64,000 nucleotides of DNA from an uncultured Cytophagia bacterium (GTDB lineage Bacteria; Zhuqueibacterota; Zhuqueibacteria; Thermofontimicrobiales; Thiofontviventaceae), in the NCBI GenBank assembly GCA_964498785.1, contig CAZCJL010000021.1, positions 2,818-66,817 of the forward strand, given 5' to 3'. Positions 6,165 through 23,491 of the stretch are shown here, piece after piece. A program made the position numbers and the translations under genes. How positions within the stretch are numbered: position 1 is the stretch's first letter; each line of letters starts with the position of its first letter. A model generated the notes under the pieces. The model did not search any database and was not told the origin of the DNA. It worked only from the letters and a program-made list of their open reading frames with translations.

Positions 6165-9100
6165 ATGAAATCACATTGTGTTTTCAAAATCATTATCGCA
6201 TTTTTACTTGTTCTGTATAAAATTGCCATTTCACAGAGTGATTTTAGCTCCTCATCTTCAAATATTAGCTCCACACAATTTATACCTGGTATATATTACA
6301 AGTATTTTCATGGAACCTGGACAAAATTACCGGTTTTTAATGATGAAAAACCGGTGGCGTCCGGAATTATCAATAATTTTGATATTAGCAATCGCCAGCA
6401 GGACGATCATTTTGCTTTTCAATTTCAGGGATATATTCATATTTCACGAGCTGGAAAATATCAATTTTATTTGAAATCTGATGACGGGGCCAAACTTTTT
6501 ATTAACGGAAAATCAATTGTTGATAACGACAACATGCATGTTGCACGAGAACGGAGCGGATCTGTTCAATTAAGCGAAGGCGTGCATTCCATTGAGTTAC
6601 ACTATTTTGAAAGGGAGGGCAGACAAGTATTGGAGCTACGTTACTCTGGTCCCGGAATAAAGAAAACAAAAATACCGGATCAGGTGTTATTCCGGGAGCA
6701 AATTGCAGGTTTTCCCATGCCCTGGCAGAACGAAGATATCGGACGGGTCTCGATTGGTGGTAGTGCATTCTATAACAATGGAAAATTTATTGTAAAAGCC
6801 TCTGGTGATGATATTTGGGGAGATGACGATGAATTTCATTTCGTCTATTGGCCAATGAATGCTGATGTTGAAATTATTGCAAAAATCAACTCAATAACTG
6901 ATACCGACGACTGGGCAAAGTCAGGGATAATGATTCGCGAATCTTTGAAAGATGATTCAAAACATGCTTTTATGCTAGTCACTCCGGATGAAGGATCCGC
7001 ATTTCAACGCCGCATTATAGATAAAAAAAATAGTTATCACTCCGGAAGCAGCGGTTCCGTTCCCATCTGGCTAAAACTGGAACGGATTGGAAATACATTT
7101 ACAGGTTACAAATCCAAAGATAGTCTGAACTGGATTCGGGTGGGAACCGAGCAGATCAAAATGGAGGATGAAACATACGCCGGAATTGCCCTCACCAGTC
7201 ATGATGATAGAAAATTGTGTACGAGCAATGTCCTAATTTATCTAAGTGGTGTTTACGATGATATCATTTTGACGCCTGAATTTCCTGTATTACCAGCAGA
7301 TGGTAAAAGTACAGTGAGCATTAAATCTGATCCATTATACGGATTTAAGGGCACGATCGTACCACAAGGAACACCGGTCACTGTAACCACAGACATGGGT
7401 AAAATTATTTCAATCGATAAAAATACCGAAATTTCAGGCGTGCAGGTGATGACCGATGAGCAGGGCCAAATCAGTTTTGAGTATCAGGCTGCAAATGAAC
7501 CGGGGATTGCGAAAGTATTTGCTAAAAGTGTTTTCGGAGACGCTAGCGGGGAAACGACCGTCGAACTATTGGGAGAAAACATCCAGCTTGTTTCAACAAA
7601 CTCTGACGTGACAGAGTTATCACAGGGACAGAAAAACATTCCTGTTTCAATGCGCATCCGAAATGAGGGTGTAATGACATCGCATCTTAGCGATGCTGAT
7701 TTAATCATATCCGGAACCGGATCGATTTCAGCCAGAAATCATTTTGATGTTCAGCGAACAGACACTCTGTCGATAGTAAGGCCAGCACAATCTGCAGAAT
7801 TGACTTTTATTGTGTCAGCTCATCCGGATGCTGATACAGTTACATATTCCATTGACGGGCGGTTGGTGACCGAAATTGGAACTTACACCAATTGCCTGCA
7901 TCAACACCAATGGCAGGTTGAATCTACACCCGCGTTACGAATTGAATCTATCGACGCGTTTGCAGACGATATATTTCAAGGACAGGACGGGCTAATTGTG
8001 ACGATGGAAGTGGTAAATAATGGTATGGCAACAGTGGATTCAGTTGACGCAGGATTAACATTTTGGCGCCAGGGTAATGATATTAGCCTGGAATATCAGG
8101 TAACACTAAGTGAGGACACTCCTCAAATAATAGATGGCCATTCAAAAATAACGATAATGTTTTTGGTGAATGTCTCCACATCCGCGACTCTTGATACGAT
8201 TGATATTATTGGTCATTTATCCGGTGTGGATGTGAATTCCGGAATAAAATATCACGCAGATTCTGATGATGCAATAGACAGATGGCTTGTTAAACGAGCC
8301 GAAGGTATTCTTTTTCAGGCTATTGATGTTTCGCATAAATACGCGATTATCGGACAGCAGGAGCCCTGGACTATTCGTACTCATGTGAGAAATGTGAGCG
8401 GTGTTGATTTGGAACTGGATAGTGTACAGGTAAAATTCAACATTTTTAATGAAGATGTGACAGATGAATACAATTTTATTTATCCGGAAACATTTTTAGG
8501 AACCCAAACAGTAGCATTTAATAACGAAGCTGAGGACAGTTTGCAAATTCACGTCAATTCATTCGGCGCCTCAGCCGGATTATTGGAAATAACGATTTTC
8601 ATTTATTGTCATGCACGAGATTTTCATTTTACAGTCAATGATTCAAGCCCGCGCGGGCTGGGTTATATTTTCATCTATGGACCGCCGGAACTGCAAATTT
8701 CCACGGAGATTGATAGCTGTTTTCATATTACTGAAAATGGAGACGGGCTTGTTAATCTGGATCAATCATTTGCAGTGAAGGTACTGGTGCGAAATATTGG
8801 AGATGAAGAGTTAAGTAATGTTGGCGTTACCATTTTGTCTAATGAAGAATGTATTTCAATATCAGATACGTCCCAAATTGCATCATCTGTTTTGAAAAAT
8901 CGATCAGCAACGCTTTTTTATAATTATATCGCGCAGGCAAACCTGGTTCCTGCCGTGGAATATTTTAATGTCCGGGTTGATAGTGCTTTTGGTTCAAAAA
9001 GCGGAGAGCCGGCTAAAATTAATCCGCTTTCCGATATGAACGCCCGGGTAACAATATTCCGCCCCGCTGAATTGCACATTACCGCAGATTCTCTGATTGA

Positions 9101-10919
9101 AACGCCAACAGATAAAATTTTTCCGGTCGATGTTACTGTGATTAATCCAAACGGCCATGCACAATGTGATAGCAGTGGCGAACTGACAATTAAATTACCG
9201 GACGGCTATTTTATTCGGGGTGAAAATTTGACGAAACGATTTCTACCGAATAAAAGCATTTCATGGAACGTTCGTTCGCCATCGAACGCGGTTGAAACTG
9301 ATTCAATTTTAATCTTCATCAGCCGGCGTTCCTATGATGTAAATATGCTTACACCGGCGATAGTCGGAACGGATTCTATCTTTGTAAAAGTAAATACACT
9401 TGAATCATTTGTTAATATAAAAAATGTGACGATTAATTCTCCAAATGGCGCGCGTGACGATACGTTATCAACCGGTCAGACATTTCAGGTATCAGCGATC
9501 ATTGGTCAGCAAATGGCAGCAAATATCAACGCAGTGATGGATATTCCGCCAGGTTATTCAATCGTGAGTTCGGAAAAAATTGATGATGACACACTCTTAT
9601 GTACATGGACGCTCACGGCGCCAAACTATCCGCATTACCAGCCAGAGATGTTCATTCTTAATGCAAGCGGAAATTTGGTTACTGATACCACAAAAATTGT
9701 CGGCATCCCGGATTCTTCTTTGTCAGTCGTGACCGTCAATCGAGCCAATCTCACTGTTGAAGCGGAGATTATCGATCCTCCGAAAGCAGTGGAAGGTCAG
9801 GTTCAGCCAGATATGGAATTTGTAATTTGCGGATATGTAAAAAACAACGGAGATGCTTCTATTTACGGCACTGGAAGCTTACGCCTTGATATTGAAGATC
9901 AAACACATTTTCAGATCATTGGGCCGGATGTGTTGCCAGCGAGTGAAGATTCGGTTACCTGGACGATCCGAACAGCAGCCGAATTACCGCAAGATAACTG
10001 GGTATTAAAAGTCAGGCTGCAGGATATTCCAGAAGATATCAATACGAATTCTGATGCATTCGTTGAAAAGGATTATAAAGATATCGCGGTGACCTCTGCC
10101 AGTGGCGGTGTCGGACGGTTGGAATTAATGATAAGGAAAATACCGGATATTGCGCAAACATCCATTGTTGCCGGTGAAACCAAAATTTTACTGGGTATTA
10201 CCTGCACCAACCTGTCGGTGGATAACGAAATTCCGATTCTGCTCCATTCATTTAAATGCGACACTTATGGTGAAAACGGTGATTTAATTTATCCGTTTCA
10301 AACAATGTCGGAAATTCGCATTGTTAATAGCCGAAAGCAAGTGGTTGCTCAAAGCACTGAAATTTATGCCAACCCGGTGACAATCGAATTCCATATACCA
10401 GACACGATTAAGGCGCAGCAATCAGACAGCCTCTTTTTTGAAATTGATTTTAATGAACAACTGGATCGCCGGTTTAAAATTTATATTAAAGACAGTTCGT
10501 ATGTTCGCGCAACATCGATTGTAGATGTTTACATGGTGAATGGTTTGGGGAATTCACACGGGAACTTAGATATTAGCTCGAATTGTCCGGTAATCATTCA
10601 GCGGAATTTGAAGAAATCGTTTCGCTGCTATCCCAATCCGTTTGGAAGCTCGAACAGAAGTAGCACGAATTTTGTGTATTATTTGGATCAAAATACCGCT
10701 GTGCAGCTTAAAATATTTACACTTCTGGGAGAACTGGTCTGGGAAGCGTCTTTTCGCGAAGATGAACCCCAGGCAAAAAAAGGATTACATGCCTCTGATG
10801 ATATTCGATGGGATGCCAAAAATATGCGCGGTAAAGAAGTGTTGAACGGTGTTTATATTGCTTGCATCCGTACTGGCGACGGCAAAACCGCAATCACCAA
10901 AGTTGCAGTCTTGAAATGA
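6165..10919 (+). CDS. Giant secreted cell-surface protein: signal peptide, PA14 domain, ConA-like/jelly-roll domain, multiple CARDB/Ig-like repeats and a C-terminal T9SS (Por) sorting domain
   Basis: - The N-terminus MKSHCVFKIIIAFLLVLYKIAISQ is a signal peptide.
- PA14 motif: GYIHISRAGKYQFYLKSDDGAKLFINGKSIVDND…ELHYFEREG.
- There are repeated '…V.V.N.G…' CARDB-like units.
- The last ~85 aa (CYPNPFGSS…VYIACIRTGDGKTAITKVAVLK) match the T9SS CTD pattern (YPNPF…, terminal beta-strands).
- There is no SD upstream. Confidence 0.8.
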   Translation: MKSHCVFKIIIAFLLVLYKIAISQSDFSSSSSNISSTQFIPGIYYKYFHGTWTKLPVFNDEKPVASGIINNFDISNRQQDDHFAFQFQGYIHISRAGKYQFYLKSDDGAKLFINGKSIVDNDNMHVARERSGSVQLSEGVHSIELHYFEREGRQVLELRYSGPGIKKTKIPDQVLFREQIAGFPMPWQNEDIGRVSIGGSAFYNNGKFIVKASGDDIWGDDDEFHFVYWPMNADVEIIAKINSITDTDDWAKSGIMIRESLKDDSKHAFMLVTPDEGSAFQRRIIDKKNSYHSGSSGSVPIWLKLERIGNTFTGYKSKDSLNWIRVGTEQIKMEDETYAGIALTSHDDRKLCTSNVLIYLSGVYDDIILTPEFPVLPADGKSTVSIKSDPLYGFKGTIVPQGTPVTVTTDMGKIISIDKNTEISGVQVMTDEQGQISFEYQAANEPGIAKVFAKSVFGDASGETTVELLGENIQLVSTNSDVTELSQGQKNIPVSMRIRNEGVMTSHLSDADLIISGTGSISARNHFDVQRTDTLSIVRPAQSAELTFIVSAHPDADTVTYSIDGRLVTEIGTYTNCLHQHQWQVESTPALRIESIDAFADDIFQGQDGLIVTMEVVNNGMATVDSVDAGLTFWRQGNDISLEYQVTLSEDTPQIIDGHSKITIMFLVNVSTSATLDTIDIIGHLSGVDVNSGIKYHADSDDAIDRWLVKRAEGILFQAIDVSHKYAIIGQQEPWTIRTHVRNVSGVDLELDSVQVKFNIFNEDVTDEYNFIYPETFLGTQTVAFNNEAEDSLQIHVNSFGASAGLLEITIFIYCHARDFHFTVNDSSPRGLGYIFIYGPPELQISTEIDSCFHITENGDGLVNLDQSFAVKVLVRNIGDEELSNVGVTILSNEECISISDTSQIASSVLKNRSATLFYNYIAQANLVPAVEYFNVRVDSAFGSKSGEPAKINPLSDMNARVTIFRPAELHITADSLIETPTDKIFPVDVTVINPNGHAQCDSSGELTIKLPDGYFIRGENLTKRFLPNKSISWNVRSPSNAVETDSILIFISRRSYDVNMLTPAIVGTDSIFVKVNTLESFVNIKNVTINSPNGARDDTLSTGQTFQVSAIIGQQMAANINAVMDIPPGYSIVSSEKIDDDTLLCTWTLTAPNYPHYQPEMFILNASGNLVTDTTKIVGIPDSSLSVVTVNRANLTVEAEIIDPPKAVEGQVQPDMEFVICGYVKNNGDASIYGTGSLRLDIEDQTHFQIIGPDVLPASEDSVTWTIRTAAELPQDNWVLKVRLQDIPEDINTNSDAFVEKDYKDIAVTSASGGVGRLELMIRKIPDIAQTSIVAGETKILLGITCTNLSVDNEIPILLHSFKCDTYGENGDLIYPFQTMSEIRIVNSRKQVVAQSTEIYANPVTIEFHIPDTIKAQQSDSLFFEIDFNEQLDRRFKIYIKDSSYVRATSIVDVYMVNGLGNSHGNLDISSNCPVIIQRNLKKSFRCYPNPFGSSNRSSTNFVYYLDQNTAVQLKIFTLLGELVWEASFREDEPQAKKGLHASDDIRWDAKNMRGKEVLNGVYIACIRTGDGKTAITKVAVLK

Positions 10920-11285: not shown

Positions 11286-11831
11286 ATGAAACAATCTTCT
11301 TCAATTATACAAACCTGCCAGGAAAGTGTTACCGCTGAAAATTATTATCACAGAAATCGTGGCTTTAGCTGCGTCGGGCTGGTGAGTCCCAGGGATAAAA
11401 AAAATATTGGCTCGGTGATAAGAGCTGCCGGTTGTTTTAAAGCAGCATTTGTTGCTGTCAGTGGCAGTTCGGTACAGGAAAAATATCTTCGGGCAGATCC
11501 AATGAAGATGAATCGTCATTTGCCTGTGCTGCAAGTTTCAGAAATACACAAAGTGCTTCCATTTCAATGCGTACCGGTTGCAGTGGAGTTGGCAGATCAG
11601 GCGATGTCGTTAGTCGATTATCTGCATCCCGGGCGTGCGTTTTACATTTTTGGTCCGGAAAACGGATCGCTCGGTTCCAAAATTTTAAATTGGTGCCAGG
11701 ATGTTGTTTACATACCGGTATCGAATTGTCTGAACCTGGCTGCTGCGGTGAATGTTGTGCTTTATGACCGTCTCATCAAAATGGAAACCAATCAAGGTAA
11801 AATTATAAATTATTCTGACAAAATAATTTAG
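11286..11831 (+). CDS. SpoU/TrmH-family RNA 2'-O-methyltransferase (SPOUT)
   Basis: Motifs NIGSVIRAAGCFKAAFVAVSG, …FYIFGPENGSLG… and VYIPVSNCLNLAAAVNVVLYD are hallmark SpoU motifs 1-3. Confidence 0.75.
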   Translation: MKQSSSIIQTCQESVTAENYYHRNRGFSCVGLVSPRDKKNIGSVIRAAGCFKAAFVAVSGSSVQEKYLRADPMKMNRHLPVLQVSEIHKVLPFQCVPVAVELADQAMSLVDYLHPGRAFYIFGPENGSLGSKILNWCQDVVYIPVSNCLNLAAAVNVVLYDRLIKMETNQGKIINYSDKII

Positions 11832-12197: not shown

Positions 12198-12413
12198 ATG
12201 GCAGTAGAAAAAACCATCGCTTCTTCAAGCCTGGTAGAAGTTATCGACAGAGTGCTGGATAAGGGTATTGTAATCGACGCCTGGGCTCGTGTATCTTTAG
12301 TAGGTATTGAATTATTGGCTGTAGAAGCCCGCGTTGTTTTAGCTTCTGTAGAAACATATCTAAAATATGCTGAAGCAATCGGCTTAACAGCTACAGCGGC
12401 ACAACCCGCATAA
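12198..12413 (+). CDS. gvpA: Gas vesicle structural protein GvpA
   Basis: 71 aa: [64 protein letters not shown]. This is near-identical to the canonical cyanobacterial GvpA core. A strong SD (AAAGGAGGTG) lies 7 nt upstream. Confidence 0.97.
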
Positions 12414-12594: not shown

Positions 12595-13230
12595 ATGGAT
12601 TTGATTTACAACGTGCAGAAGCTCACAAAGGAAATGATTACAGGTTATGATTTGCGGGTGGCAAAAATTGAAGAAGTATTAACTTCAGCTTATGATGTAT
12701 TAGAAGATTGTCGGGAAAGTAGAAAGAACGTTCGCGAACAGCTCAAACACAGTCTTGCCAATAAAAACTCGTTGCGCCGAAAAGATTTTGATATGATCGT
12801 ACAAGATTTACATCAATCGCAAGTTGAATGTGAAGCTCGAATCAAAGAAACGGTGCACATATTTACCAGGGAAAATAAATATCTTGCTGGGCAATTTTTC
12901 GAATCATTAATAACCGGCAAAATTGAACAGTCTAAAAAGGCTGTTAACAAAATTGAAAAAAACGGGAAAGAGATTCAGCACACAATTAAAACGTTTCAAC
13001 AAGAACAAAAACAAATTGCAACGGATTTGCATTCGTTTCTGGAAAAATGTGAATCGATCCGTATTAAAGATTTTAAAAAAATGATTGAAAAAATTCGTAT
13101 CCGTCAATGTGAACGCAGTGAAAAGATTAAACAGTTCTTAAAAAAAATATCTGAAGAACATAAGCAAATGCGTGCTGTTTGGCAAAATATATCGACTGAT
13201 AAAGCAAAATCACGTAACACGGATGCGTGA
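12595..13230 (+). CDS. Coiled-coil repeat protein in the gvpC position (candidate GvpC-like gas-vesicle shell or scaffold protein)
   Basis: 211 aa, Lys/Glu/Gln-rich with predicted coiled coil. It has an internal repeat about 95 aa apart (SLRRKDFDMIVQDLHQSQVECEARIKE vs SIRIKDFKKMIEKIRIRQCERSEKIKQ). It lies immediately downstream of gvpA, where gvpC sits in cyanobacterial and Serratia clusters. Confidence 0.45.
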   Translation: MDLIYNVQKLTKEMITGYDLRVAKIEEVLTSAYDVLEDCRESRKNVREQLKHSLANKNSLRRKDFDMIVQDLHQSQVECEARIKETVHIFTRENKYLAGQFFESLITGKIEQSKKAVNKIEKNGKEIQHTIKTFQQEQKQIATDLHSFLEKCESIRIKDFKKMIEKIRIRQCERSEKIKQFLKKISEEHKQMRAVWQNISTDKAKSRNTDA

Positions 13231-13262
13231 TTTTCACAAAATGAAGTTAACGGAGGTACATA

Positions 13263-14618
13263 ATGTCAAATTTAGATGATATGATGCGACTGAAAGAGGA
13301 GATCATCGCTTCGTTTGACGAGCGAATGAATACTCTTGCAAATATAGTTGAATCAACAACTGATCTCGCACAGTCAACACGAGAAATGACTGAACGACAT
13401 CGAAATGATCATCTTCTTATGAAAAATAATTTACAGTCACAATTAAGTGAATTTAGAACAAAATTGAGCGACGATAATTTAAAGCGCCTTGTTGCGACAA
13501 AGCATGAATTTAATGAAAGAATGAGTCAATTAACTGACTTGCTTGCTGCGTTTAAACCGGACGGAAAGTCGGAGTTGACACATTCAGTCAGAGAAACATT
13601 AGAAAAATTTCGTTCGGTGCGACTCGATGAATTCAATGTATTTTTGGAAAAATTACAGCAGCGTATTTATGAAATTAAAGACGAAGTTCATTCGACGATA
13701 GATGGGTTTAAGGAATCTCGGCATGAAATATCTGCCGCATTAGAGCGAAATTTGTCTGAATTTAATAAACAGCTTAAAAATTATCGGTCAACGCTTTCGA
13801 ACAACGAAAATAACAGATATAAGCAGGCGCAGGCAGAAATTCAAGAACGTACCATTTATCTGAATACTCTTTTTGGCGACGTCTCACGTTTGTTAAGCGA
13901 TTTTCGCACGGATCACCAGAAAATGTCGTCGATGTTAAAGGAGATGTTAACATTTAAGGGTTTCAATAACCAGCGGTTGAGCAATTTTCAAAATATGATG
14001 GATAATATTCTGGATCATCAGAAAAAGCGTGTTCACGATACAACCCAAATGATCTCAGGTTTTAATGAGTGGCATGATGATATAAAAAATGAATTGCATG
14101 ATCTGCTTTCTACTGTAAAATTGAATTTAGCGCAATTTAACGATGAACGCGTCAATTTAGCTCATGAAGAAATGAGTGAGCGCGTGGAATATATTTATCA
14201 AATGAAAAAAGACATCTCCACCATGCTGGGAAATTTGCGTAGTGAAAGCCAAAAAGTAGCGGACGAATGGAAGAATATCGCCAGAATAATAGACCAAAAA
14301 AGAAAAAAATCAGAAAAGGAACACATAAAGATTATTTCAGAAGAAGAACCTGAAATAAAAGCGCCAAAACCAGCGCCAGAAATGGAGAAGCAGGAAATTG
14401 TATCGAAAATGTATGCTTCGAAAACAGCGTCTGAAAATGATAACGACCCGAGTGACAAAATACTGGCTATTATCGCGCAACATGCTGATGAGGGAATTAA
14501 ATTGGCTGAAATTGGCAAGATTGTGAATAAAAAATGGCAGTCACTAATTCCTTTTACAAAAACACTTATGGAGCAGGGAAAGATAAAAAAAGAGGATACT
14601 GTGTATTTCCCGAATTAA
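13263..14618 (+). CDS. Large coiled-coil repeat protein (second GvpC-like candidate) with a C-terminal winged-helix-like segment
   Basis: 451 aa. A recurrent x[DEGN]F[RNKQ] motif appears at residues 64, 83, 116, 124, 149, 167, 213, 234, 242, 267 and 292. There is a clear internal duplication of about 118 aa (residues ~116-167 vs ~234-292). A Pro/Lys/Glu linker (EEEPEIKAPKPAPEMEKQE) precedes a C-terminal globular segment (ILAIIAQHADEGIKLAEIGKIVNKKW…). Confidence 0.45.
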   Translation: MSNLDDMMRLKEEIIASFDERMNTLANIVESTTDLAQSTREMTERHRNDHLLMKNNLQSQLSEFRTKLSDDNLKRLVATKHEFNERMSQLTDLLAAFKPDGKSELTHSVRETLEKFRSVRLDEFNVFLEKLQQRIYEIKDEVHSTIDGFKESRHEISAALERNLSEFNKQLKNYRSTLSNNENNRYKQAQAEIQERTIYLNTLFGDVSRLLSDFRTDHQKMSSMLKEMLTFKGFNNQRLSNFQNMMDNILDHQKKRVHDTTQMISGFNEWHDDIKNELHDLLSTVKLNLAQFNDERVNLAHEEMSERVEYIYQMKKDISTMLGNLRSESQKVADEWKNIARIIDQKRKKSEKEHIKIISEEEPEIKAPKPAPEMEKQEIVSKMYASKTASENDNDPSDKILAIIAQHADEGIKLAEIGKIVNKKWQSLIPFTKTLMEQGKIKKEDTVYFPN

Positions 14619-14665: not shown

Positions 14666-15580
14666 ATGAACAATAATTCCACCGTCGTTCTTGAGCCGCT
14701 ATTAGATGATGAATATGTAATTACTCCGTATTTGAAAGATATCCTCGAATCAGCAAGCAATTACATGGATGCTGGTTATCCGATTCATTTCTGTGGACCG
14801 GCAGGAACTGGCAAAACATCTCTTGCTATGTATCTGGCAGCAAAATATAACCGACCGATCGTAATGATGCACGGGGATAATGAATTTGTTACCTCAGATT
14901 TAATTGGCGCTGAGCACGGAATTCGATCTCGAAAAGTGGTGGACAATTTTATTCATCATGTTTATAAAACCGAGGAACGCATCGACCGACAGTGGATGGA
15001 TAAACGACTTTCTCTGGCATGTAAAAAAGGTTTCACGTTAATTTATGATGAGTTTACCCGGTCAAAACCAGAGGCCAATAATGTATTGCTTTCAATCCTG
15101 GAAGAAAGAATGCTTGACCTTCCCGCACAAGTGAAGGGGGATGTTTATATAAAAGTACATCCTGAATTCAGGGCAATTTTCACAAGCAATCCGCAGGAAT
15201 ATGTTGGCATACATCGGGCGCAAGATGCATTGTTAGATCGGATGATTACAATTGATTTACAGCATCTTGATTTGGATACGGAAATTCGGATTACACAAAA
15301 AAGAGCTGACCTCACTTATAAGCACGCCAAAAAAATAGTGAATATTGTCCGCAATTTTCATATAAAAAATGGTAATGAAAAAATTTCCACATTGAGAGAT
15401 GCCATAAAAATCGGTAAAATTTCCAAATTGATGAATATCACACCATCTAAATCACAAAATAGATTTCGGAAAATATGTGTTGATATTTTAACATCAGATC
15501 CTCACATTCACAAATTTAATGGCGCTCCAAAATCTCAGTCCTTGAAATTTCTGGATGAACTTATCGAAGTATATTGTTAA
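14666..15580 (+). CDS. gvpN: Gas vesicle protein GvpN (MoxR/CbbQ-type AAA+ ATPase)
   Basis: 304 aa with Walker A (HFCGPAGTGKTSLA), Walker B (LIYDEF) and CbbQ/NirQ/GvpN-type architecture, lying between the gvpA and gvpO/F genes. Confidence 0.9.
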   Translation: MNNNSTVVLEPLLDDEYVITPYLKDILESASNYMDAGYPIHFCGPAGTGKTSLAMYLAAKYNRPIVMMHGDNEFVTSDLIGAEHGIRSRKVVDNFIHHVYKTEERIDRQWMDKRLSLACKKGFTLIYDEFTRSKPEANNVLLSILEERMLDLPAQVKGDVYIKVHPEFRAIFTSNPQEYVGIHRAQDALLDRMITIDLQHLDLDTEIRITQKRADLTYKHAKKIVNIVRNFHIKNGNEKISTLRDAIKIGKISKLMNITPSKSQNRFRKICVDILTSDPHIHKFNGAPKSQSLKFLDELIEVYC

Positions 15581-15601: not shown

Positions 15602-15856
15602 ATGGCGCTTCAAAAGGTTATCGCTGCAATTAGCAACTTTTTTGAATCTGTATTAAATAAAAAGGGTCGGGTGATTGAGGTGAAAACTCAGGAGCGCGGC
15701 TGGTCTGCCTTGGTGGAAACAGTGGAAGAAGCCGAGTACATGCGCAAAATTGCCCAGGATGATCTGCTTGCTGTATATGAGGTTCACGTTGATCAAAATT
15801 ATGAAGTGGTTGACTACAGTCGAAAAAGTTTGCGTTCGAGAAAAGAAGCTGCATAA
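15602..15856 (+). CDS. gvpO: Gas vesicle protein GvpO
   Basis: 84 aa. The motif …GRVIEVKTQERGWSALVETVEEAEYMRKIAQDDLLAVYEVHVDQNYEVVDYSRK… matches the GvpO pattern (GW-V-VE-VE…LLA-YEV…G-VV-Y-R). An SD (AAAGGGGTGA) is present. Confidence 0.8.
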   Translation: MALQKVIAAISNFFESVLNKKGRVIEVKTQERGWSALVETVEEAEYMRKIAQDDLLAVYEVHVDQNYEVVDYSRKSLRSRKEAA

Positions 15857-15865
15857 GGTTTAAAA

Positions 15866-16192
15866 TTGAAAGGCGGTATTGGTATGTCACAAATTAAAGG
15901 ATTAAGTAATATTCGCTCCAGCCAGAGAATCCATCTAAGTTCTATTTCTAAAAAAGGACGTTCGAAATTCTTGACGCTGTTTATGTTGGATAATGAACGG
16001 CAATTATTGCAGAAAGATAGTGATATTTTGAAACAACGGCAATCAAGAAATCAGGAGCGGATTAAAGCAATTAACGCTGAGATTAATGAAAAACTGCAGC
16101 ACGATAGTGCAATGATTAATAAAAATGAAAAGGGACATTCTTTGATAAGAAAAATTCCGGAAAAGTGGAAGACTGCAAAAATCGATGTTTAA
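15866..16192 (+). CDS. Small basic coiled-coil protein of unknown function inside the gvp cluster
   Basis: 108 aa (or 102 aa from the second Met, MSQIKGL, at about 15884). It is rich in K/R/Q and sits between gvpO and the first gvpF/L. I recognised no known family. Confidence 0.4.
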   Translation: MKGGIGMSQIKGLSNIRSSQRIHLSSISKKGRSKFLTLFMLDNERQLLQKDSDILKQRQSRNQERIKAINAEINEKLQHDSAMINKNEKGHSLIRKIPEKWKTAKIDV

Positions 16193-16224
16193 AAATAGTG
16201 AAAGCGAAAAGTAATGGTGGAAAA

Positions 16225-17238
16225 ATGGCGGCAAAATATTTATACGGATTTATTGAGACTGATCGTGAGGAGAATTTCGGGAATATAGGCGTCGGTAATC
16301 AGAACAGGGTAACGACAATTCGTTATCGTGATGTTGCAGCAGTTGTTAGTGATCATCCTGTGATACAGTTTGATCAATTAGATGAAAGTCAGTTAACGAA
16401 CTATATTCAAAAACATCAGGTGGTTAATGAAAAGGTGCTGGAAAAACATACCATCATTCCGTTGAGGTTCGGAAACATTGCCCAAAATGCAGCAGATGTT
16501 CTGAAAATATTAAAACATGCTTATATTCAATTTAAAACACAACTGGATCAGTTGCAGGGAAAAATCGAACTTGTCATTCAGGCTACCGCGAACAAACAGG
16601 TCTGGTTGAAGGAGATCGTCGAGACAAATACGACGATAAAAGATTTGACAAAGAAATTGGATAAATCCGATGCGCAGGAGAAAATTCCCATCCAGGTCGA
16701 AATCGGAAAAATAATTCACAATACAATCGTACATAAAGAAAAAGAGATAGTCGTTGATATATTGGCAACACTTCGAAATGGCGGAAGTCCATATAGATCG
16801 GATAAATTACTGACCCAGGATATGATAATGAATATGTCCTTTTTAATTGATAGAACTGCTGAGTCTGCGTTTGATCAAAAATTAAATGAATTAGGGCAAC
16901 GATATGCAAATGATCTCACTTTCAAGTATATTGGCCCGCTACCGCCGTACAGTTTTACACAATTGAATTTAAAAACCACTGATTTGAATTTCATTAATAA
17001 TGCGCGAAAAATGCTGAATTTGCCAGGGAAAGCCTCAAAAAAGGAGATCAAAAAAGCGTATCGAACAATGGCGTCAAAATATCATCCGGATAGGACTGGA
17101 AATGATTCTCAAAAATTTAATGAAATTCACAACGCGTATCGCACTCTGGAAGTGTTTTGCAATAATTACCGCTATTCATTTGATGAAAAAACAATAAGTG
17201 AAACAGTGCTTATTGATGAACATTATAAAGAAGAATAG
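16225..17238 (+). CDS. GvpF/GvpL-family gas vesicle protein fused to a C-terminal DnaJ J-domain
   Basis: The real start is MAAKYLYGFIE at 16225, with a GGTGGA SD 5 nt upstream; the 16165 ORF start is an upstream extension. GvpF/L hallmarks are present: YLYGFI…VTTIRYRDVAAVVS…IPLRFG…KYIGPLPPYSF. The last ~70 aa (LPGKASKKEIKKAYRTMASKYHPDRTGNDSQKFNEIHNAYRTLEVF) form a J-domain with an intact HPD motif. Confidence 0.8.
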   Translation: MAAKYLYGFIETDREENFGNIGVGNQNRVTTIRYRDVAAVVSDHPVIQFDQLDESQLTNYIQKHQVVNEKVLEKHTIIPLRFGNIAQNAADVLKILKHAYIQFKTQLDQLQGKIELVIQATANKQVWLKEIVETNTTIKDLTKKLDKSDAQEKIPIQVEIGKIIHNTIVHKEKEIVVDILATLRNGGSPYRSDKLLTQDMIMNMSFLIDRTAESAFDQKLNELGQRYANDLTFKYIGPLPPYSFTQLNLKTTDLNFINNARKMLNLPGKASKKEIKKAYRTMASKYHPDRTGNDSQKFNEIHNAYRTLEVFCNNYRYSFDEKTISETVLIDEHYKEE

Positions 17239-18249: not shown

Positions 18250-19048
18250 TTTATATCTTTACTGTGTGCGGGAGAGGCGTGCCAATGAATTAAACGTGAC
18301 CGGTATATTTAATCAGGAAAAGGTTTTTTCGATCGTTTGTAAAAATTTAGAAGCAATTGTCAGTATTGTCCCGCAAAATCAATTTGATGATACTGATATA
18401 AAGAAGAAGGCACGGGAAGATATCAACTGGATAAAGGAAAAGGCGCAACTCCACGAGGCAATTGTGGAAAAAGCGATGTATCATTCATCAGAAATATATC
18501 CGGTTATTCCCATGCGGTTTGGAACGATTTTCAAATCAAAAGAAAAAATTAATCACCTGCTAACAAAGCACTACCATCAGTACAGCAATACAATTGCCCG
18601 TCTGACAAAAAAACAGGAATGGAGTGTAAAAGTATATCTGACGCATCAGGATCGGATCACCGATCATGTTGTTAGCACCAACGAATTTATCAAAAAAGAA
18701 CAAGCAGATGTCGCGGTTTTACCAAAAGGAATGGCCTATTTCATGCAAAAAAAACTTAACGAAATGGTAAAAAACGCTGTTGACGACAAAATGAATCAAT
18801 ATGTTCACGATATCATTGAGAGATTGGAAAAACATTCAACAGGACGTCACGAAGGAAAATTACTGGGACCGGAATTTACCGGGAAGAAAGCAACAATGGT
18901 TCTGAATGCAATTCTCCTGATTCATGAGGAAAGTGTTTTGGATTTAATTGAGGCAATACAGAAACTTCAGGATGAAATGAATGTTTTCGGGTTCCGGTTT
19001 GAATATAGCGGTCCGTGGCCTCCGTATCATTTTGTGGAGTCGCAGTAA
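18212..19048 (+). CDS. gvpL: GvpF/GvpL-family gas vesicle protein (paralog 3, GvpL-like)
   Basis: 278 aa with motifs LYLYCV…PMRFGTIF…FEYSGPWPPYHF. Its annotated start overlaps gvpG by 38 nt, so the start is uncertain. Confidence 0.7.
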   Translation: MYNEFPKFKNEDNLYLYCVRERRANELNVTGIFNQEKVFSIVCKNLEAIVSIVPQNQFDDTDIKKKAREDINWIKEKAQLHEAIVEKAMYHSSEIYPVIPMRFGTIFKSKEKINHLLTKHYHQYSNTIARLTKKQEWSVKVYLTHQDRITDHVVSTNEFIKKEQADVAVLPKGMAYFMQKKLNEMVKNAVDDKMNQYVHDIIERLEKHSTGRHEGKLLGPEFTGKKATMVLNAILLIHEESVLDLIEAIQKLQDEMNVFGFRFEYSGPWPPYHFVESQ

Positions 19049-19049
19049 A

Positions 19050-19589
19050 ATGAATAATACTTTTGCAGAAAAAGAGGTGACGCTGCTGGATGCGCTGGAC
19101 AGGGTTATCGAAAATGGTGCGGTCATAAGTGGTGATCTTACATTAAAAATGGCTGATATTGATTTGATCTATATTGGATTGCGGCTTATTGCAACATCCG
19201 TCTCAAAAGTTGAAAGCATGAATGGTTCGTCCCATCAATGCCCGGATCGGGAACCCACGGAACATGAATCAAATTACATACAAAAACTTGACTCTGAAAT
19301 TATAAAAGCAGAGCAGAATATTTCACAGTTGATTGAATTGCAAAATCCTGAAAAAACAGAGCAGGGACTGGCGCAAATAGTTTTGACTCTTGTGGTTTTA
19401 TTAAAAAGACTTATGGAACGGGAAGCCATGCGCAGAATTCAGCGCGGAGCATTATCCAATGTTGCAATTCAGAAACTGGGGTTGACGTTTATGGCGCTTG
19501 ATAAAAAGGTGGACGAACTCAAGTGTGTTTTTGGTCTCAAAGATGATGATTTAAATATTGATTTAGGCCCTTTGGGAAATTTGATGTAG
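19050..19589 (+). CDS. Fusion of a GvpJ/GvpM-like (GvpA-fold) domain and a GvpK domain
   Basis: The real start is probably MNNTFAEKEVTLLDALDRV at 19050, just after the gvpL stop. The N-domain LLDALDRVIENGAVISGDLTLKMADIDLIYIGLRLIATSV is GvpA/J/M-like. The C-domain GLAQIVLTLVVLLKRLMEREAMRRIQRGALSNVAIQKLG…DELKCVFGLKDDD matches the GvpK consensus (LVQLVLTVVELL…LEREAVRR…G.L…E.LG). Confidence 0.7.
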   Translation: MNNTFAEKEVTLLDALDRVIENGAVISGDLTLKMADIDLIYIGLRLIATSVSKVESMNGSSHQCPDREPTEHESNYIQKLDSEIIKAEQNISQLIELQNPEKTEQGLAQIVLTLVVLLKRLMEREAMRRIQRGALSNVAIQKLGLTFMALDKKVDELKCVFGLKDDDLNIDLGPLGNLM

Positions 19590-19629: not shown

Positions 19630-19950
19630 ATGTCGGAACAGATAACCCACGGACTTCATTCCACAAATCTCGCGGATATTTTAGAGAGAGTATTGGATAA
19701 GGGGATTGTAATTGCCGGAGATATCCAAATTAAGCTTGCGGATATTGAGTTGCTAACGATAAAAATACGACTTATGGTGGCGTCTGTAGATAAAGCCGTT
19801 GAAATGGGAATTAATTGGTGGGAAAGTGATCCTTATTTAAATAATAATTCCAACGAATTAATCGAAGAAAATAATCAATTAAAAGAAAAATTAAATAAAA
19901 TTGAACGACAACAACAGCAGCGTAAACGAGGGTTAAAAGATGGAGAATAA
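19630..19950 (+). CDS. gvpJ: Gas vesicle protein GvpJ
   Basis: 106 aa. [57 protein letters not shown] shows a GvpA-fold plus the GvpJ-typical 'WW…DP.L' region and a basic C-tail. Confidence 0.85.
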   Translation: MSEQITHGLHSTNLADILERVLDKGIVIAGDIQIKLADIELLTIKIRLMVASVDKAVEMGINWWESDPYLNNNSNELIEENNQLKEKLNKIERQQQQRKRGLKDGE

Positions 19951-20470
19951 TAAAAAGAAAAAAGAGAAAGAACATGAGGTTAAAATAGATTTTGGGTTAG
20001 GAGGTTTGTTTAAAGGGCTCGGCAATCTGGTTGACCTTGTGTCTGAAATGTCTGAAAAAGGGGAGCAGATCAAGGAAAGAACGCAGGAATTTTCTGGTAA
20101 AGGTCCGTTCAAGGATGTGAACGGAGTTTATGGATTTTCAATTAAAATGGGCGCGAGTGGAAAACCTGAAGTAAATTCTTTTGGAAATGTAAAGAAAAGT
20201 CAAAACGGGCCTGTGGTTGATGAGGTGAGAGAACCGATGGTCGATATTTTTGAGGAAGATGATGAAATTCAGATCATCGCGGAAATGCCAGGTGTGGCTA
20301 AAAATCAAATCAAATTAGAATTGAATGGTGATGTGATGATGATTAGCGCGCAAAATAACAAACGAAAGTACCAGAAAGAGCTATTGTTACCAACACCAGT
20401 GAAAGAGCAGACAGTGGTCTATTCTTATAAAAATGGTATTCTTGAAGTTAAATTGGCGAAAAATTCATAG
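19940..20470 (+). CDS. Hsp20/alpha-crystallin small heat-shock protein (GvpH-like)
   Basis: 176 aa. The alpha-crystallin domain REPMVDIFEEDDEIQIIAEMPGVAKNQIKLELNGDVMMISA…VVYSYKNGILEVKLAK follows a Lys-rich N-terminus. Confidence 0.8.
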   Translation: MENNKKKKEKEHEVKIDFGLGGLFKGLGNLVDLVSEMSEKGEQIKERTQEFSGKGPFKDVNGVYGFSIKMGASGKPEVNSFGNVKKSQNGPVVDEVREPMVDIFEEDDEIQIIAEMPGVAKNQIKLELNGDVMMISAQNNKRKYQKELLLPTPVKEQTVVYSYKNGILEVKLAKNS

Positions 20471-20500
20471 CACTATTGAAAAAAGGATCCGGAGAGTCGA

Positions 20501-22639: not shown

Positions 22640-23105
22640 ACAGATAAAAACGCTTTCTTCAACTCGTCGAATTTCTGATAAAAATGGTCTCAATAAAATC
22701 AGTTCTTTAACAGTTATCAGGCACGTTCAAGCTCCTCCTGTAAAGAATCACCAGTCATATTCGCCAAAGACATGGGTTTTTATTGCAGAGCCAAAATTTG
22801 TGCGTTACCGGCAAAGTTTGCTTATCGAACGCTCTGAGGAACCTATGACTGAACTTTTCCAGGAAGCAGAAGCTGTTATTGTTATCGCTGAAATTCCGGG
22901 TGTTGCAGGAACAGACGATTTGAAATTAACGGTGGAAGGGGATATTTTAATTCTTGAAGCAATGGTCCGGGGGAAACAGGCCAATCGAAAATATTTTAAA
23001 GAAATCATCATCCCATTTCAAATAAATGAACGAGATATTGTTTTTTCATTAAACAACGGACTATTTGAAATTAAGTTATTTCCCCTAACCAGGAGGCATA
23101 AATGA
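22620..23105 (+). CDS. Divergent Hsp20/alpha-crystallin-like protein
   Basis: The C-terminal ~85 aa resemble an alpha-crystallin domain ([37 protein letters not shown]…[14 protein letters not shown]). The annotated N-terminus overlaps the AAA+ gene by 20 nt, so the true start may be internal (e.g. MTELF at about 22845). Confidence 0.55.
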
Positions 23106-23491
23106 GTTATATAAAAGTAATGGTCGTTGATGATAACGATGAAATACTTGATTTATTTAAAGATTTATTTCAAGAATTAAAATACCATGTGATGCTGGCA
23201 CATGATGGTAATGAGGCATTGCAATTATTCAAAAAAGAACAACCAGATGTAATTTTTCTGGATATTAGGATGCCTGGCCCGGATGGTATCGAAACACTTA
23301 AAAAATTAAAGCAAATTGATAATGGTAATAATGCAACAGTTGTGATGATAACAGGTTACGGTGATATTGAAACAGCCAGGCAGGCGATGCAATTGGGCGC
23401 TTACGAGTATCTTACAAAACCAATTGATTTGAATGCAATCAAGTCGATCTGTGAAGAAGTTATAGAAGAAACGGTGGTTGTGAATGCCTGA
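23102..23491 (+). CDS. Stand-alone response-regulator receiver domain (CheY-like)
   Basis: 129 aa. VMVVDDNDEILDL…DVIFLDIRMPGPDG…MITGYGD…KP shows the Asp pocket, the phospho-acceptor D in LDIRMP and the conserved K. There is no output domain. Confidence 0.85.
   Translation: MSYIKVMVVDDNDEILDLFKDLFQELKYHVMLAHDGNEALQLFKKEQPDVIFLDIRMPGPDGIETLKKLKQIDNGNNATVVMITGYGDIETARQAMQLGAYEYLTKPIDLNAIKSICEEVIEETVVVNA

What the first reader, a model, noticed from the sequence alone, without database searches (positions are those of the whole stretch)
12595..14618. Two internally repeated coiled-coil proteins occupy the gvpC slot: candidate novel gas-vesicle shell-stiffening or scaffold proteins
Directly after gvpA, where cyanobacteria and Serratia encode GvpC, lie a 211-aa and a 451-aa protein. 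Both are K/E/Q-rich, and both have recurring x[DE]F[RNK]xxh motifs and internal duplications (~95-aa and ~118-aa periods). The larger one ends in a Pro/Lys linker plus a compact wHTH-like domain. Neither resembles the 33-aa-repeat GvpC at the sequence level, so they may be a new, analogous class of outer-shell protein. The wHTH-like tail could equally indicate a regulatory role.
Basis: partly seen in the sequence, partly recalled or inferred. Interest (0 to 1): 0.7.

Follow-up and report, generated by a model that had tools for sequence, protein, structure and literature searches.

The report
Divergent GvpC-like gas-vesicle protein pair
The two repeat-rich proteins encoded between gvpA and gvpN are real, conserved paralogs from a large unannotated branch of the GvpC family, the protein that coats and stiffens gas vesicles; the longer one carries a small winged-helix domain on a flexible tether whose partner is unknown.

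Summary
ORF211 (12595-13230) and ORF451 (13263-14618) lie between gvpA and gvpN, are all-helical, and have significant internal duplications (95 aa; 111/118/221 aa). ORF451 ends in a Pro/Lys/Glu linker plus a winged-helix-like domain. No Pfam or NCBIfam model covers either protein.

They are not orphans. An exhaustive profile search found 678 related cluster representatives. In all 34 loci examined the gene sits in a gvp cluster. In 23 of 25 loci with enough upstream sequence the order is gvpA, ORF211-like, ORF451-like, gvpN. The two proteins are paralogs (hhalign 97-98%).

Many relatives have 33-residue repeats. A model built from those repeats scores authentic Nostoc GvpC at 50.6 bits (shuffles at most 6.1, reversed 0.6). 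The reciprocal test also works for 36 of 150 relatives. The window proteins themselves do not match GvpC models directly.

Hydrophobic periodicity is 3.6-3.66 residues, as in GvpC, not the 3.5 of a coiled coil.

Best reading: these are divergent GvpC homologs that bind along GvpA ribs, and the tail is a cytoplasm-facing adaptor. This is a new variant of a known kind. Binding and stiffening are inferred, not shown.

The parts
12198..12413 (+). gvpA, major gas-vesicle shell protein. It is the presumed binding partner; helix alpha2 reads [15 protein letters not shown].
   Evidence: NF006874 2e-39 and PF00741. 83% identical to Nostoc GvpA. Alpha2 is identical except for I/V at one position, and E52 and E59 are conserved.
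12595..13230 (+). ORF211, the short GvpC-like paralog. It is all-helical with an N-cap motif (ITGYDLRV), two units of about 95 aa, and a C-cap (AVWQNI). It has no tail domain.
   Evidence: helices 3-54, 62-107, 112-151, 157-210. Orthologs occur in 23 loci. hhalign to the ORF451 family gives 96.8-98.3%. It scores 23.7 bits against the family 33-unit model, with a shuffle maximum of 8.8.
12658..12885 (+). ORF211 internal repeat, copy 1 (aa 22-97).
   Evidence: Offset-95 self-alignment, score 68 against null 32 +/- 4.4, 18/76 identical.
12943..13170 (+). ORF211 internal repeat, copy 2 (aa 117-192).
   Evidence: Contains the best core motif copy, at aa 125-151.
13263..14618 (+). ORF451, the long GvpC-like paralog. 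It has a helical repeat rod, a linker and a winged-helix tail.
   Evidence: It scores 179.8 bits against the Desulfobacterota-clade profile and 71.4 bits against the family 33-unit model.
13263..13328 (+). Conserved N-cap (MSNLDDMMRLKEEIIASFDERM). It is shared with the ORF211 family and resembles the GvpC N-terminus (IEKIRQEHQSIAEEV).
   Evidence: Invariant columns in A1. Aligned in hhalign to the ORF211 family. Adjacent to the region aligned with Nostoc GvpC.
13266..13547 (+). Long helix 1 (aa 2-95), first super-repeat.
   Evidence: AF2 secondary structure. Hydrophobic period 3.62.
13572..13946 (+). Long helix 2 (aa 104-228), second super-repeat. Core motif copies lie at aa 140-169 and 205-232.
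13968..14324 (+). Long helix 3 (aa 236-354), third super-repeat. A core motif lies at aa 258-287 and the Trp-containing C-cap at aa 316-342 (ADEWKNI).
   Evidence: W336 is nearly invariant across 150 relatives.
14325..14447 (+). Flexible Pro/Lys/Glu-rich linker (aa 355-395).
   Evidence: pLDDT 30-39 with no secondary structure. Poorly conserved and variable in length among orthologs.
14448..14615 (+). C-terminal winged-helix-like domain (aa 396-451).
   Evidence: Three helices in the AF2 model. The family profile best matches MarR wHTH (E = 7.8e-4). 13/150 relatives hit HTH_IclR, 8 hit MarR_2 and 10 hit RPA_C. Top Foldseek hits are Lrp, MarR and RecQ winged helices at 1.7-2 A, but are not significant.
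14666..15580 (+). gvpN, AAA+ gas-vesicle protein that closes the slot.
   Evidence: TIGR02640, 2.4e-102.

Best explanation
ORF211 and ORF451 are paralogous, highly divergent members of the GvpC lineage.

Shown:
- Both are long amphipathic alpha-helical repeat proteins.
- They are co-transcribed in orientation with gvpA and gvpN.
- Their family is found only inside gvp clusters in the loci examined.

Inferred:
- Like GvpC, each helix lies on the outer face of the shell along a GvpA rib. It would insert a conserved Leu/Phe/Met stripe, flanked by Arg/Lys/His, against the alpha2 helices of successive GvpA monomers. The alpha2 helix here is virtually identical to that of cyanobacteria. Such binding would tie neighbouring subunits together and raise collapse pressure.
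- Fully extended, the three 94-125-residue helices of ORF451 (about 53 nm) would span roughly 40 GvpA subunits. ORF211 would span about 25.
- The shared N-cap and Trp-containing C-cap may mediate head-to-tail contacts between molecules.
- The winged-helix domain of ORF451, on a linker of about 40 residues, would project into the cytoplasm as an adaptor for an unknown partner. This parallels the linker plus compact C-terminal domain of haloarchaeal GvpC.
For: Position: both genes sit in the exact gvpC slot between gvpA and gvpN. Nostoc and Halobacterium have the same layout.

Family and context:
- The exhaustive HMM search found 678 representatives at E <= 1e-3 and 195 at E <= 1e-10.
- All 34 loci examined are gvp clusters. 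Of these, 28 were retrieved with a tail-domain peptide pattern alone, without reference to context.
- 23 of 25 loci with informative upstream sequence show gvpA, ORF211-like, ORF451-like, gvpN.
- Among 2934 ORFs in those loci and 390 in the window, the family models hit only these two genes. No canonical GvpC is present.

Paralogy: hhalign of the ORF211 family against the ORF451 family gives 98.3% (E = 1e-14) and 96.8% (E = 2e-10). The alignment runs from the N-cap to the Trp cap. The two models also cross-hit each other's gene, at 28 and 59 bits.

Link to GvpC:
- The dominant repeat lengths in the family are 33 aa (38 proteins), 51 aa (38) and 58 aa (15).
- A model of 49 family 33-mers scores authentic Nostoc GvpC at 50.6 bits (300 shuffles at most 6.1, reversed 0.6) and Anabaena GvpC at 29.3 bits.
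- The whole-protein clade profile scores Nostoc GvpC at 26.8 bits, against a shuffle maximum of 7.7.
- A cyanobacterial repeat model scores 36 of 150 relatives above the best reversed control, up to 39.7 bits.
- One relative exceeds the TIGR02641 cut-off.
- The core consensus L-x-x-F-x-K-x-H-x-E-M-x-x-x-L-R has the same spacing as GvpC L30, F33, K2, L4, E6 and F11 (GvpC residues from PMC9994262).

Physical properties: both proteins are predicted all-helical. Hydrophobic period is 3.60-3.66, against 3.66 for Nostoc GvpC. GvpA alpha2, including E52 and E59, is conserved.

Selection: dN/dS is 0.09 and 0.15. Both genes are constrained but evolve faster than gvpN (0.027), as is known for GvpC.

One relative (P0013) is a fusion of an ORF211-like and an ORF451-like protein.
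Against: No experiment or structure places either protein on a vesicle.

The window proteins do not match GvpC models directly. ORF451 scores 5.7 bits and ORF211 1.7 bits against the cyanobacterial repeat model. TIGR02641 and PF01304 give no hit at E <= 1, and hhalign gives at most 1.3%. The link to GvpC is therefore transitive, through relatives.

Their repeats are 95 and 111-118 aa, not 33 aa.

Order-specific similarity between amphipathic repeats could in principle be convergent.

The AF2 models are low-confidence (pLDDT 58 and 61). The ORF211 model folds as a four-helix arrangement (pTM 0.51), which could be a soluble bundle rather than an extended rod.

Haloarchaeal GvpC shows no sequence similarity (3.2 bits).
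Confidence: 0.6

Rival explanations
1. Assembly-stage scaffold or chaperone. The amphipathic helices would bind newly made, aggregation-prone GvpA, or the growing seam, and hand it to GvpN and GvpF/L. They would not be a stable component of the mature vesicle.
For: The cluster is unusually rich in proteostasis factors: a GvpF/L-DnaJ fusion, an Hsp20, and a CDC48-type AAA+ ATPase. The ORF211 model is a compact four-helix arrangement. An amphipathic helix could shield the hydrophobic face of GvpA.
Against: Repeat expansion and contraction in quantised helical-turn units (33, 40, 51, 58 and 65 aa) is typical of lattice-binding structural proteins. Similarity to GvpC repeats also points to the surface-binding role.
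Confidence: 0.18
2. Positioning or tethering is the primary role. The helical part anchors to the vesicle, and the tail (wHTH, HhH or Lys-rich) binds the nucleoid or another cellular structure. This would space or segregate vesicles, as the PhaF and PhaM phasins do for PHA granules.
For: Three alternative tails occur in the family, and all are nucleic-acid-binding-type modules. The wHTH tail is in the majority. HhH tails occur in P0069, P0077 and P0158. Histone-like Lys/Arg-rich tails occur in P0062, P0097, P0125, P0145 and P0156. The HhH tail of P0069 weakly matches phasin PhaH (E = 1.5e-6, well below cut-off). The window tail has net charge +2.
Against: The wHTH net charge across 127 relatives averages -1.1 and reaches -11. 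That argues against general DNA binding. No DNA-contact residues were tested. ORF211 has no tail at all. No literature links GvpC to the nucleoid.
Confidence: 0.12
3. ORF451 is a transcriptional regulator of the gvp operon. The wHTH would bind DNA and the helical region would act as an oligomerisation or sensor module.
For: The tail profile's best PDB and Pfam matches are MarR and IclR wHTH domains. gvp clusters in other organisms do encode dedicated regulators.
Against: The tail is the least constant part of the architecture: it is swapped in some relatives and absent from the paralog. It is often strongly acidic. All matches fall below family cut-offs. A variable-copy repeat rod of 350 aa is not a regulator architecture. 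The cluster already carries a response regulator.
Confidence: 0.05
4. The proteins are generic coiled-coil, phasin-like or SMC-like proteins that merely happen to be adjacent to gvpA.
For: There are weak compositional hits to apolipoprotein, Baculo_PEP_C, SMC, ZorA and PhaP models.
Against: All of these hits are far below curated cut-offs. The hydrophobic period is 3.6-3.66, not 3.5. Linkage to gvp genes holds in 34 of 34 loci across phyla. Reversed-sequence controls abolish the GvpC similarity.
Confidence: 0.03

Closest known systems
Cyanobacterial GvpC (TIGR02641 / PF01304; Anabaena flos-aquae P09413, Nostoc sphaeroides WP_118171794)
   Same: Same gene slot between gvpA and gvpN. All-alpha tandem repeats. 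Hydrophobic period of about 3.66. A conserved Leu/Phe stripe with flanking basic residue, in the same spacing. A similar N-terminal segment. Many relatives of the window proteins have exactly 33-residue repeats that cross-detect GvpC (50.6 bits forward and 39.7 bits reciprocal).
   Different: The window proteins have 95-aa and 111-118-aa super-repeats built of 53-65-aa sub-repeats, and they fail the curated GvpC models. Two paralogous genes are present instead of one. ORF451 adds a linker and a winged-helix domain. Surface binding and stiffening are demonstrated for GvpC (PMC9994262) but not here.
Haloarchaeal GvpC (Halobacterium salinarum pNRC100, WP_010890518)
   Same: The overall architecture is the same: helical repeats, then an extended linker, then a compact C-terminal domain (review PMC10903477; sequence). 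The gene order gvpA-gvpC-gvpN-gvpO is also the same.
   Different: No detectable sequence similarity (3.2 bits; hhalign at most 1.3%). The haloarchaeal repeats are acidic and 32-38 aa long. Its C-terminal domain is Cys/His-containing rather than a winged helix.
Phasins with DNA-binding tails (PhaF, PhaM, PhaH) of PHA granules
   Same: The modular logic is the same: an amphipathic helical organelle-binding region plus a nucleic-acid-binding-type tail. Some relatives have Lys-rich or HhH tails of the kind found in these phasins.
   Different: No homology to phasin models (PhaP_Bmeg E = 0.35). The organelle is different. DNA binding by the tail is untested, and the charge of many tails makes it unlikely.
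Exchangeable apolipoproteins and apolipophorin-III (amphipathic helical repeat proteins)
   Same: Long amphipathic helices with repeat lengths quantised in whole helical turns. Weak Pfam hits occur in 41/150 and 25/150 relatives.
   Different: All hits are far below cut-off (about 16-29 bits against 90). There is no lipid context. The resemblance is compositional and physical only.

Membership tests
GvpC (cyanobacterial type) | Encoded in a gvp cluster directly downstream of gvpA and upstream of gvpN | tested here: met
   Window order is gvpA, ORF211, ORF451, gvpN, gvpO. This matches Nostoc and Halobacterium and is conserved in 34 loci.
GvpC (cyanobacterial type) | Tandem 33-residue repeats | tested here: not met
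   The window proteins have periods of 95 aa (ORF211) and 111/118/221 aa (ORF451), with sub-repeats of 53-65 aa. At family level, 38 of 150 representatives have a dominant 33-aa period.
GvpC (cyanobacterial type) | Score above the curated cut-off of TIGR02641 (18.8 bits) or a match to PF01304 | tested here: not met
   Neither window protein hits at E <= 1. Three of 150 relatives hit TIGR02641 at E <= 0.01, and one (P0114, 23.5 bits) is above cut-off.
GvpC (cyanobacterial type) | Detectable sequence homology to the GvpC repeat | tested here: inconclusive
   The test is met for the family. The family 33-mer model scores Nostoc GvpC at 50.6 bits (shuffle maximum 6.1, reversed 0.6). The reciprocal model places 36 of 150 relatives above the reversed control. 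hhalign of the clade profile against Nostoc GvpC gives 62% (E = 7e-5). The test is not met for the window proteins directly (5.7 and 1.7 bits). They are linked only through the family core: ORF451 scores 71.4 bits and ORF211 23.7 bits against the family unit model.
GvpC (cyanobacterial type) | All-alpha amphipathic helix with conserved Leu/Phe/Arg residues on one face | tested here: met
   AF2 secondary structure is all-helical. Period is 3.60-3.66, against 3.66 for Nostoc GvpC. The conserved stripe falls at core positions -7, -3, 0, +4, +7, +11, +15, with R/K at +12. Positions -3, 0, +4 and +7 were fixed by the search pattern used to collect the segments, so only the others are independent evidence.
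GvpC (cyanobacterial type) | Bound to the outer vesicle surface, removable by SDS or urea, and raises critical collapse pressure | not testable with these tools
   Requires purified vesicles, proteomics and pressure-collapse assays.
Haloarchaeal GvpC | Repeats, then an extended linker, then a compact C-terminal domain | tested here: met
   ORF451 has a helical rod at aa 1-354, a linker at 355-395 and a domain at 396-451. The haloarchaeal architecture is taken from PMC10903477 and the sequence.
Haloarchaeal GvpC | Sequence similarity to the acidic 32-38-aa repeats or the Cys/His C-terminal domain | tested here: not met
   3.2 bits against a shuffle maximum of 3.8. hhalign probability at most 1.3%.
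MarR/IclR-type wHTH transcription factors | Winged-helix DNA-binding domain that passes the family model | tested here: inconclusive
   The tail profile against PDB gives MarR 5eri_A at E = 7.8e-4. Pfam HTH_IclR and MarR_2 hits occur in 13 and 8 of 150 relatives. For the proteins shown individually these are below cut-off (P0014: MarR_2 20.7 bits against 27; HTH_IclR 17.3 against 22). Foldseek hits to wHTH domains are not significant.
MarR/IclR-type wHTH transcription factors | Dimerisation or ligand-binding domain, and a conserved basic DNA-contact surface | tested here: not met
   No such domain is present. The tail's net charge ranges from -11 to +9 with mean -1.1 across 127 relatives.
Phasins (PhaP family) | Match to phasin models | tested here: not met
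   PhaP_Bmeg gives E = 0.35 (11 bits against a cut-off of 28.3) for ORF451 and no hit for ORF211.
Canonical coiled coil / SMC-like | Heptad (3.5-residue) hydrophobic periodicity, or a match to SMC models | tested here: not met
   Period is 3.60-3.66 in every long helix. Individual SMC scores are about 20-22 bits against cut-offs of 567-729.

The most novel reading that the evidence does not exclude
The pair may be a two-component, GvpC-derived outer scaffold. In this reading the long paralog is a modular adaptor: its rod coats the vesicle, and its tethered wHTH tail couples vesicles to the nucleoid or to another cellular partner. In relatives the tail is an HhH or histone-like Lys-rich segment instead. 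The coupling would control organelle spacing, clustering or inheritance, a function not described for any GvpC.
Probability: 0.15. Interest if true: 0.8.

Novelty: new variant of a known kind. Interest (0 to 1): 0.6.

Why it matters
GvpC is the only known external reinforcing protein of gas vesicles. It is also the main handle for engineering acoustic reporter genes. Reviews describe it essentially for cyanobacteria and haloarchaea.

This analysis indicates a large hidden branch of the lineage: 678 representative clusters, none covered by a Pfam or NCBIfam model. The few members that carry a source name are labelled 'hypothetical protein'. The branch is found in anaerobic Desulfobacterota, Thermodesulfovibrionales, Zhuqueibacterota and others.

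Members differ from known GvpC in three ways:
- Repeat lengths vary in whole helical turns (33, 40, 51, 58 and 65 aa).
- The gene is duplicated into a short and a long paralog.
- The long paralog carries a swappable C-terminal domain on a flexible linker.

These features give three things. First, a natural series for asking how repeat length relates to GvpA lattice binding and stiffness. Second, a ready-made display or adaptor module on the vesicle surface. Third, a testable hypothesis that vesicles are coupled to other cell components.

Naming the family would also improve annotation of gvp clusters in metagenomes.

Tried and rejected
- The word-indexed homolog searches found only 6 and 3 relatives, and 14 with the 150-sequence profile. 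They gave a false impression of orphan genes. The exhaustive HMM search corrected this.
- The first profile comparison of the two proteins used only three ORF211 sequences and gave 20%. Collecting 21 ORF211 homologs from fetched loci raised it to 97-98%.
- hhalign of the messy 150-sequence alignment against a single GvpC gave 7%. Repeat-unit models with shuffled and reversed controls were more informative.
It was used only after it scored 2.6e-59 against TIGR02641. Authentic Nostoc and Halobacterium GvpC were then fetched.
A sub-clade alignment was used instead.
- Foldseek of both low-confidence models against PDB found nothing significant.
- A PDB sequence search with the ORF451 profile found nothing.
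- No family member exists in the plasmid collection.
- I considered whether repeat lengths are commensurate with the 12.1-12.7 A GvpA spacing (33 aa spans 4 subunits; PMC9994262). The fit is good for 33 and 58 aa but poor for 40, 44, 69, 95 and 111 aa. Whole-helical-turn quantisation at 3.64 residues per turn fits the common lengths better, so I did not adopt the spacing idea.
- General DNA binding by the wHTH was rejected as a family-wide property because of the charge spread.
- The promoter and terminator scan around the genes was uninformative, with counts at or below shuffle expectation.
- Literature searches for GvpC together with winged helix, helix-turn-helix or nucleoid found no description of this architecture.
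Full report
**1. Observation**

The window carries a complete gas-vesicle cluster on the + strand:
- gvpA (12198-12413)
- ORF211 (12595-13230)
- ORF451 (13263-14618)
- gvpN (14666-15580)
- gvpO (15602-15856)
- a conserved 108-aa ORF
- a GvpF/L-DnaJ fusion
- GvpF, GvpG and GvpL/F
- a GvpA-like/GvpK fusion
- a GvpJ-like protein
- an Hsp20
- a CDC48-type AAA+ ATPase
- a response regulator

The two ORFs occupy exactly the slot that gvpC holds in Nostoc (gvpA-gvpA-gvpC-gvpN) and Halobacterium (gvpA-gvpC-gvpN-gvpO). Neither ORF passes any Pfam or NCBIfam model.

The internal duplications are well above chance:
- ORF211 offset 95 scores 68, against a shuffled maximum of 32 +/- 4.4.
- ORF451 offsets 111, 221 and 118 score 71, 62 and 51, against 36.8 +/- 4.1.

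AF2 models are low-confidence (pLDDT 58 and 61) but entirely helical:
- ORF451 has three long helices (aa 2-95, 104-228, 236-354). These are separated by the conserved breaks FKPDG and FKGFN.
- A disordered linker follows (aa 355-395), then a three-helix domain (aa 396-451).
- ORF211 has four helices.

Both genes are under purifying selection against a 73-78% identical ortholog. dN/dS is 0.09 and 0.15, compared with 0.027 for gvpN.

**2. They are not orphans**

Word-indexed searches found only 6 and 3 relatives. An exhaustive profile search of 1.84 billion representatives found 678 at E <= 1e-3 and 195 at E <= 1e-10.

The typical architecture is:
- an N-cap (MSNxDDMRRLxEEIxxSYxxRV)
- a variable number of helical repeats
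- a nearly invariant Trp cap
- a Pro/Ala/Glu/Lys-rich linker
- a C-terminal domain of about 55 residues

A profile of that domain best matches MarR wHTH domains in the PDB (E = 7.8e-4). Individual members hit HTH_IclR, MarR_2 and RPA_C. For the members shown individually these hits are below cut-off.

A minority of relatives carry a helix-hairpin-helix tail or a histone-like Lys/Arg-rich tail instead.

No curated model covers the family. The only members with a source name are labelled 'hypothetical protein'.

**3. Genomic context**

Five contigs were reached through proteins. A further 28 genome loci were retrieved with a tail-domain peptide pattern alone, so they were not chosen by context. 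One more ortholog contig was added. These loci come from Desulfobacteraceae, Syntrophales, Desulfatiglandales, Thermodesulfovibrionales, Zhuqueibacterota and other MAGs.

All 34 loci are gvp clusters. In 23 of the 25 with enough upstream sequence the order is gvpA (1-2 copies), ORF211-like, ORF451-like, gvpN. The two exceptions are the HhH-tail variants, which follow gvpA directly.

Among 2934 ORFs in these loci and 390 in the window, the family models hit only these two genes. A cyanobacterial GvpC-repeat model hits nothing. These clusters therefore have no canonical gvpC.

**4. The two proteins are paralogs**

With 21 ORF211 homologs aligned, hhalign against the ORF451 family gives 98.3% (E = 1.2e-14) and 96.8% (E = 2.3e-10). 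The alignment runs from the shared N-cap to the Trp cap. Each family's HMM also finds the other gene in the window (28 and 59 bits).

ORF211 is in effect the rod without the linker and tail. One metagenomic relative (P0013) is a fusion of an ORF211-like and an ORF451-like protein. I could not verify that this fusion is not an assembly artefact.

**5. Relation to GvpC**

Direct tests of the window proteins against GvpC fail:
- TIGR02641 and PF01304 give no hit.
- hhalign gives at most 1.3%.
- ORF451 scores 5.7 bits and ORF211 1.7 bits against a cyanobacterial repeat model.

At family level the link is clear:
- The dominant repeat lengths are 33 aa (38 proteins), 51 aa (38), 58 aa (15), 40 aa (10) and 65 aa (9). 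These are all close to whole numbers of helical turns at 3.64 residues per turn.
- A model of 49 family 33-mers scores authentic Nostoc GvpC at 50.6 bits (300 shuffles at most 6.1, reversed sequence 0.6). It scores Anabaena GvpC at 29.3 bits.
- The whole-protein profile of the Desulfobacterota clade scores Nostoc GvpC at 26.8 bits (shuffles at most 7.7), and hhalign gives 62%.
- Reciprocally, a model of nine cyanobacterial repeats scores 36 of 150 relatives above the best reversed control (8.6 bits), up to 39.7 bits.
- One relative passes the TIGR02641 cut-off.
- The window proteins match the family unit model at 71.4 and 23.7 bits (shuffles at most 8.8).

The chain from the window proteins to the family core to GvpC therefore holds.

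The family core is L-L-x-x-F-x-K-x-H-x-E-M-x-x-x-L-R-x-x-L. It places Leu, Phe, a hydrophobic residue and Leu at the same spacing as the residues shown by mutagenesis to be required for GvpC function (L30, F33, L4, F11; PMC9994262).

Haloarchaeal GvpC shows no sequence similarity. It does share the layout of repeats, linker and compact domain (PMC10903477).

**6. Physical properties and mechanism**

Hydrophobic periodicity is 3.60-3.66 residues in every long helix of both proteins. It is 3.66 in Nostoc GvpC and 3.62-3.66 in relatives. This is the signature of a straight amphipathic stripe, not a 3.5-residue coiled coil.

GvpA here is 83% identical to Nostoc GvpA. Its alpha2 helix is the GvpC docking site according to PMC9994262. 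In the window it is identical to the Nostoc helix apart from one I/V change, and E52 and E59 are conserved.

I infer that both proteins lie along GvpA ribs like GvpC. Extended, ORF451 would span about 40 subunits and ORF211 about 25. I also infer that the tail projects into the cytoplasm.

The tail's function is open. Three alternative tail types, all of nucleic-acid-binding kind, suggest nucleoid or polyanion binding. However, the wHTH net charge ranges from -11 to +9 (mean -1.1; +2 in the window), which argues against general DNA binding.

**7. Rivals and verdict**

- An assembly-chaperone role is possible, given the chaperone-rich cluster.
- A pure regulator role is unlikely.
- A generic coiled-coil or phasin assignment is rejected.

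Searches of the held literature found no description of a GvpC with a winged-helix tail or of this gene pair.

The proteins are best described as a divergent, unannotated, two-gene variant of GvpC, with a novel tethered domain. All functional statements about binding and stiffening are inferences that await experiment.

Noticed in passing
window 16165-17238 (+): A GvpL/GvpF domain (PF06386, 6e-54) is fused to a C-terminal DnaJ J-domain (PF00226, 1.5e-13). The fusion is conserved in the Zhuqueibacterota loci and in L003 and L038. It suggests Hsp70 recruitment during vesicle assembly.
   Followed up: partly
window 18981-19589 (+): One protein combines a GvpA-like Gas_vesicle domain (aa 34-71) with GvpK (aa 122-202). 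The review PMC10903477 notes the same kind of fusion for Anabaena flos-aquae GvpK.
   Followed up: partly
window 19940-23491 (+): The 3' end of the cluster encodes an Hsp20 (19940-20470) and a CDC48-type double AAA+ ATPase (20501-22639). It also encodes a 161-aa protein with no Pfam hit (22620-23105) that overlaps the ATPase gene end, and a stand-alone response-regulator receiver (23102-23491). The arrangement is syntenic in L001 and L002.
   Followed up: partly
window 15866-16192 (+): A 108-aa protein of unknown function lies between gvpO and the GvpF/L-DnaJ gene. It has no Pfam or NCBIfam hit but is conserved at the same position in L001-L003 (tblastn 3e-15 to 5e-27).
   Followed up: partly
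P0013 (519 aa, metagenomic representative): An apparent fusion of an ORF211-like N-terminal half, lacking its Trp cap, with a complete ORF451-like protein. It could be a genuine gene fusion or a gene-calling or assembly artefact.
   Followed up: no
L026 4602-6913 (Thermodesulfovibrionales MAG): A second gvpA copy lies between the ORF211-like and ORF451-like genes (gvpA, ORF211-like, gvpA, ORF451-like). One gvpA reading contained a stop codon at the coordinates I tried.
   Followed up: no
L003, L006, L007, L013, L016, L026: These clusters carry two gvpN paralogs a few kb apart, whereas the window has one.
   Followed up: no
L001 9308-9976 (Ca. Zhuqueibacterota MAG GCA_049322915.1): The ORF211 ortholog is split into two adjacent ORFs (called as 103 and 79 aa). 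It is intact (218 aa) in the near-identical JGI contig L002. The split may be a sequencing error or a recent pseudogenisation.
   Followed up: no
L004 8263-9093 and L039 4405-4698: Other small uncharacterised proteins occupy the gvpA-gvpN interval elsewhere. A 276-aa protein follows the HhH-tail family member in L004. A 97-aa hypothetical protein lies there in the Spartinivicinus ruber plasmid. Neither was compared with the family.
   Followed up: no
window 6165-10919 (+): A very large 1584-aa ORF with a hydrophobic N-terminus lies upstream of the gvp cluster. A SpoU-type methylase follows at 11286-11831. The large ORF was not analysed.
   Followed up: no
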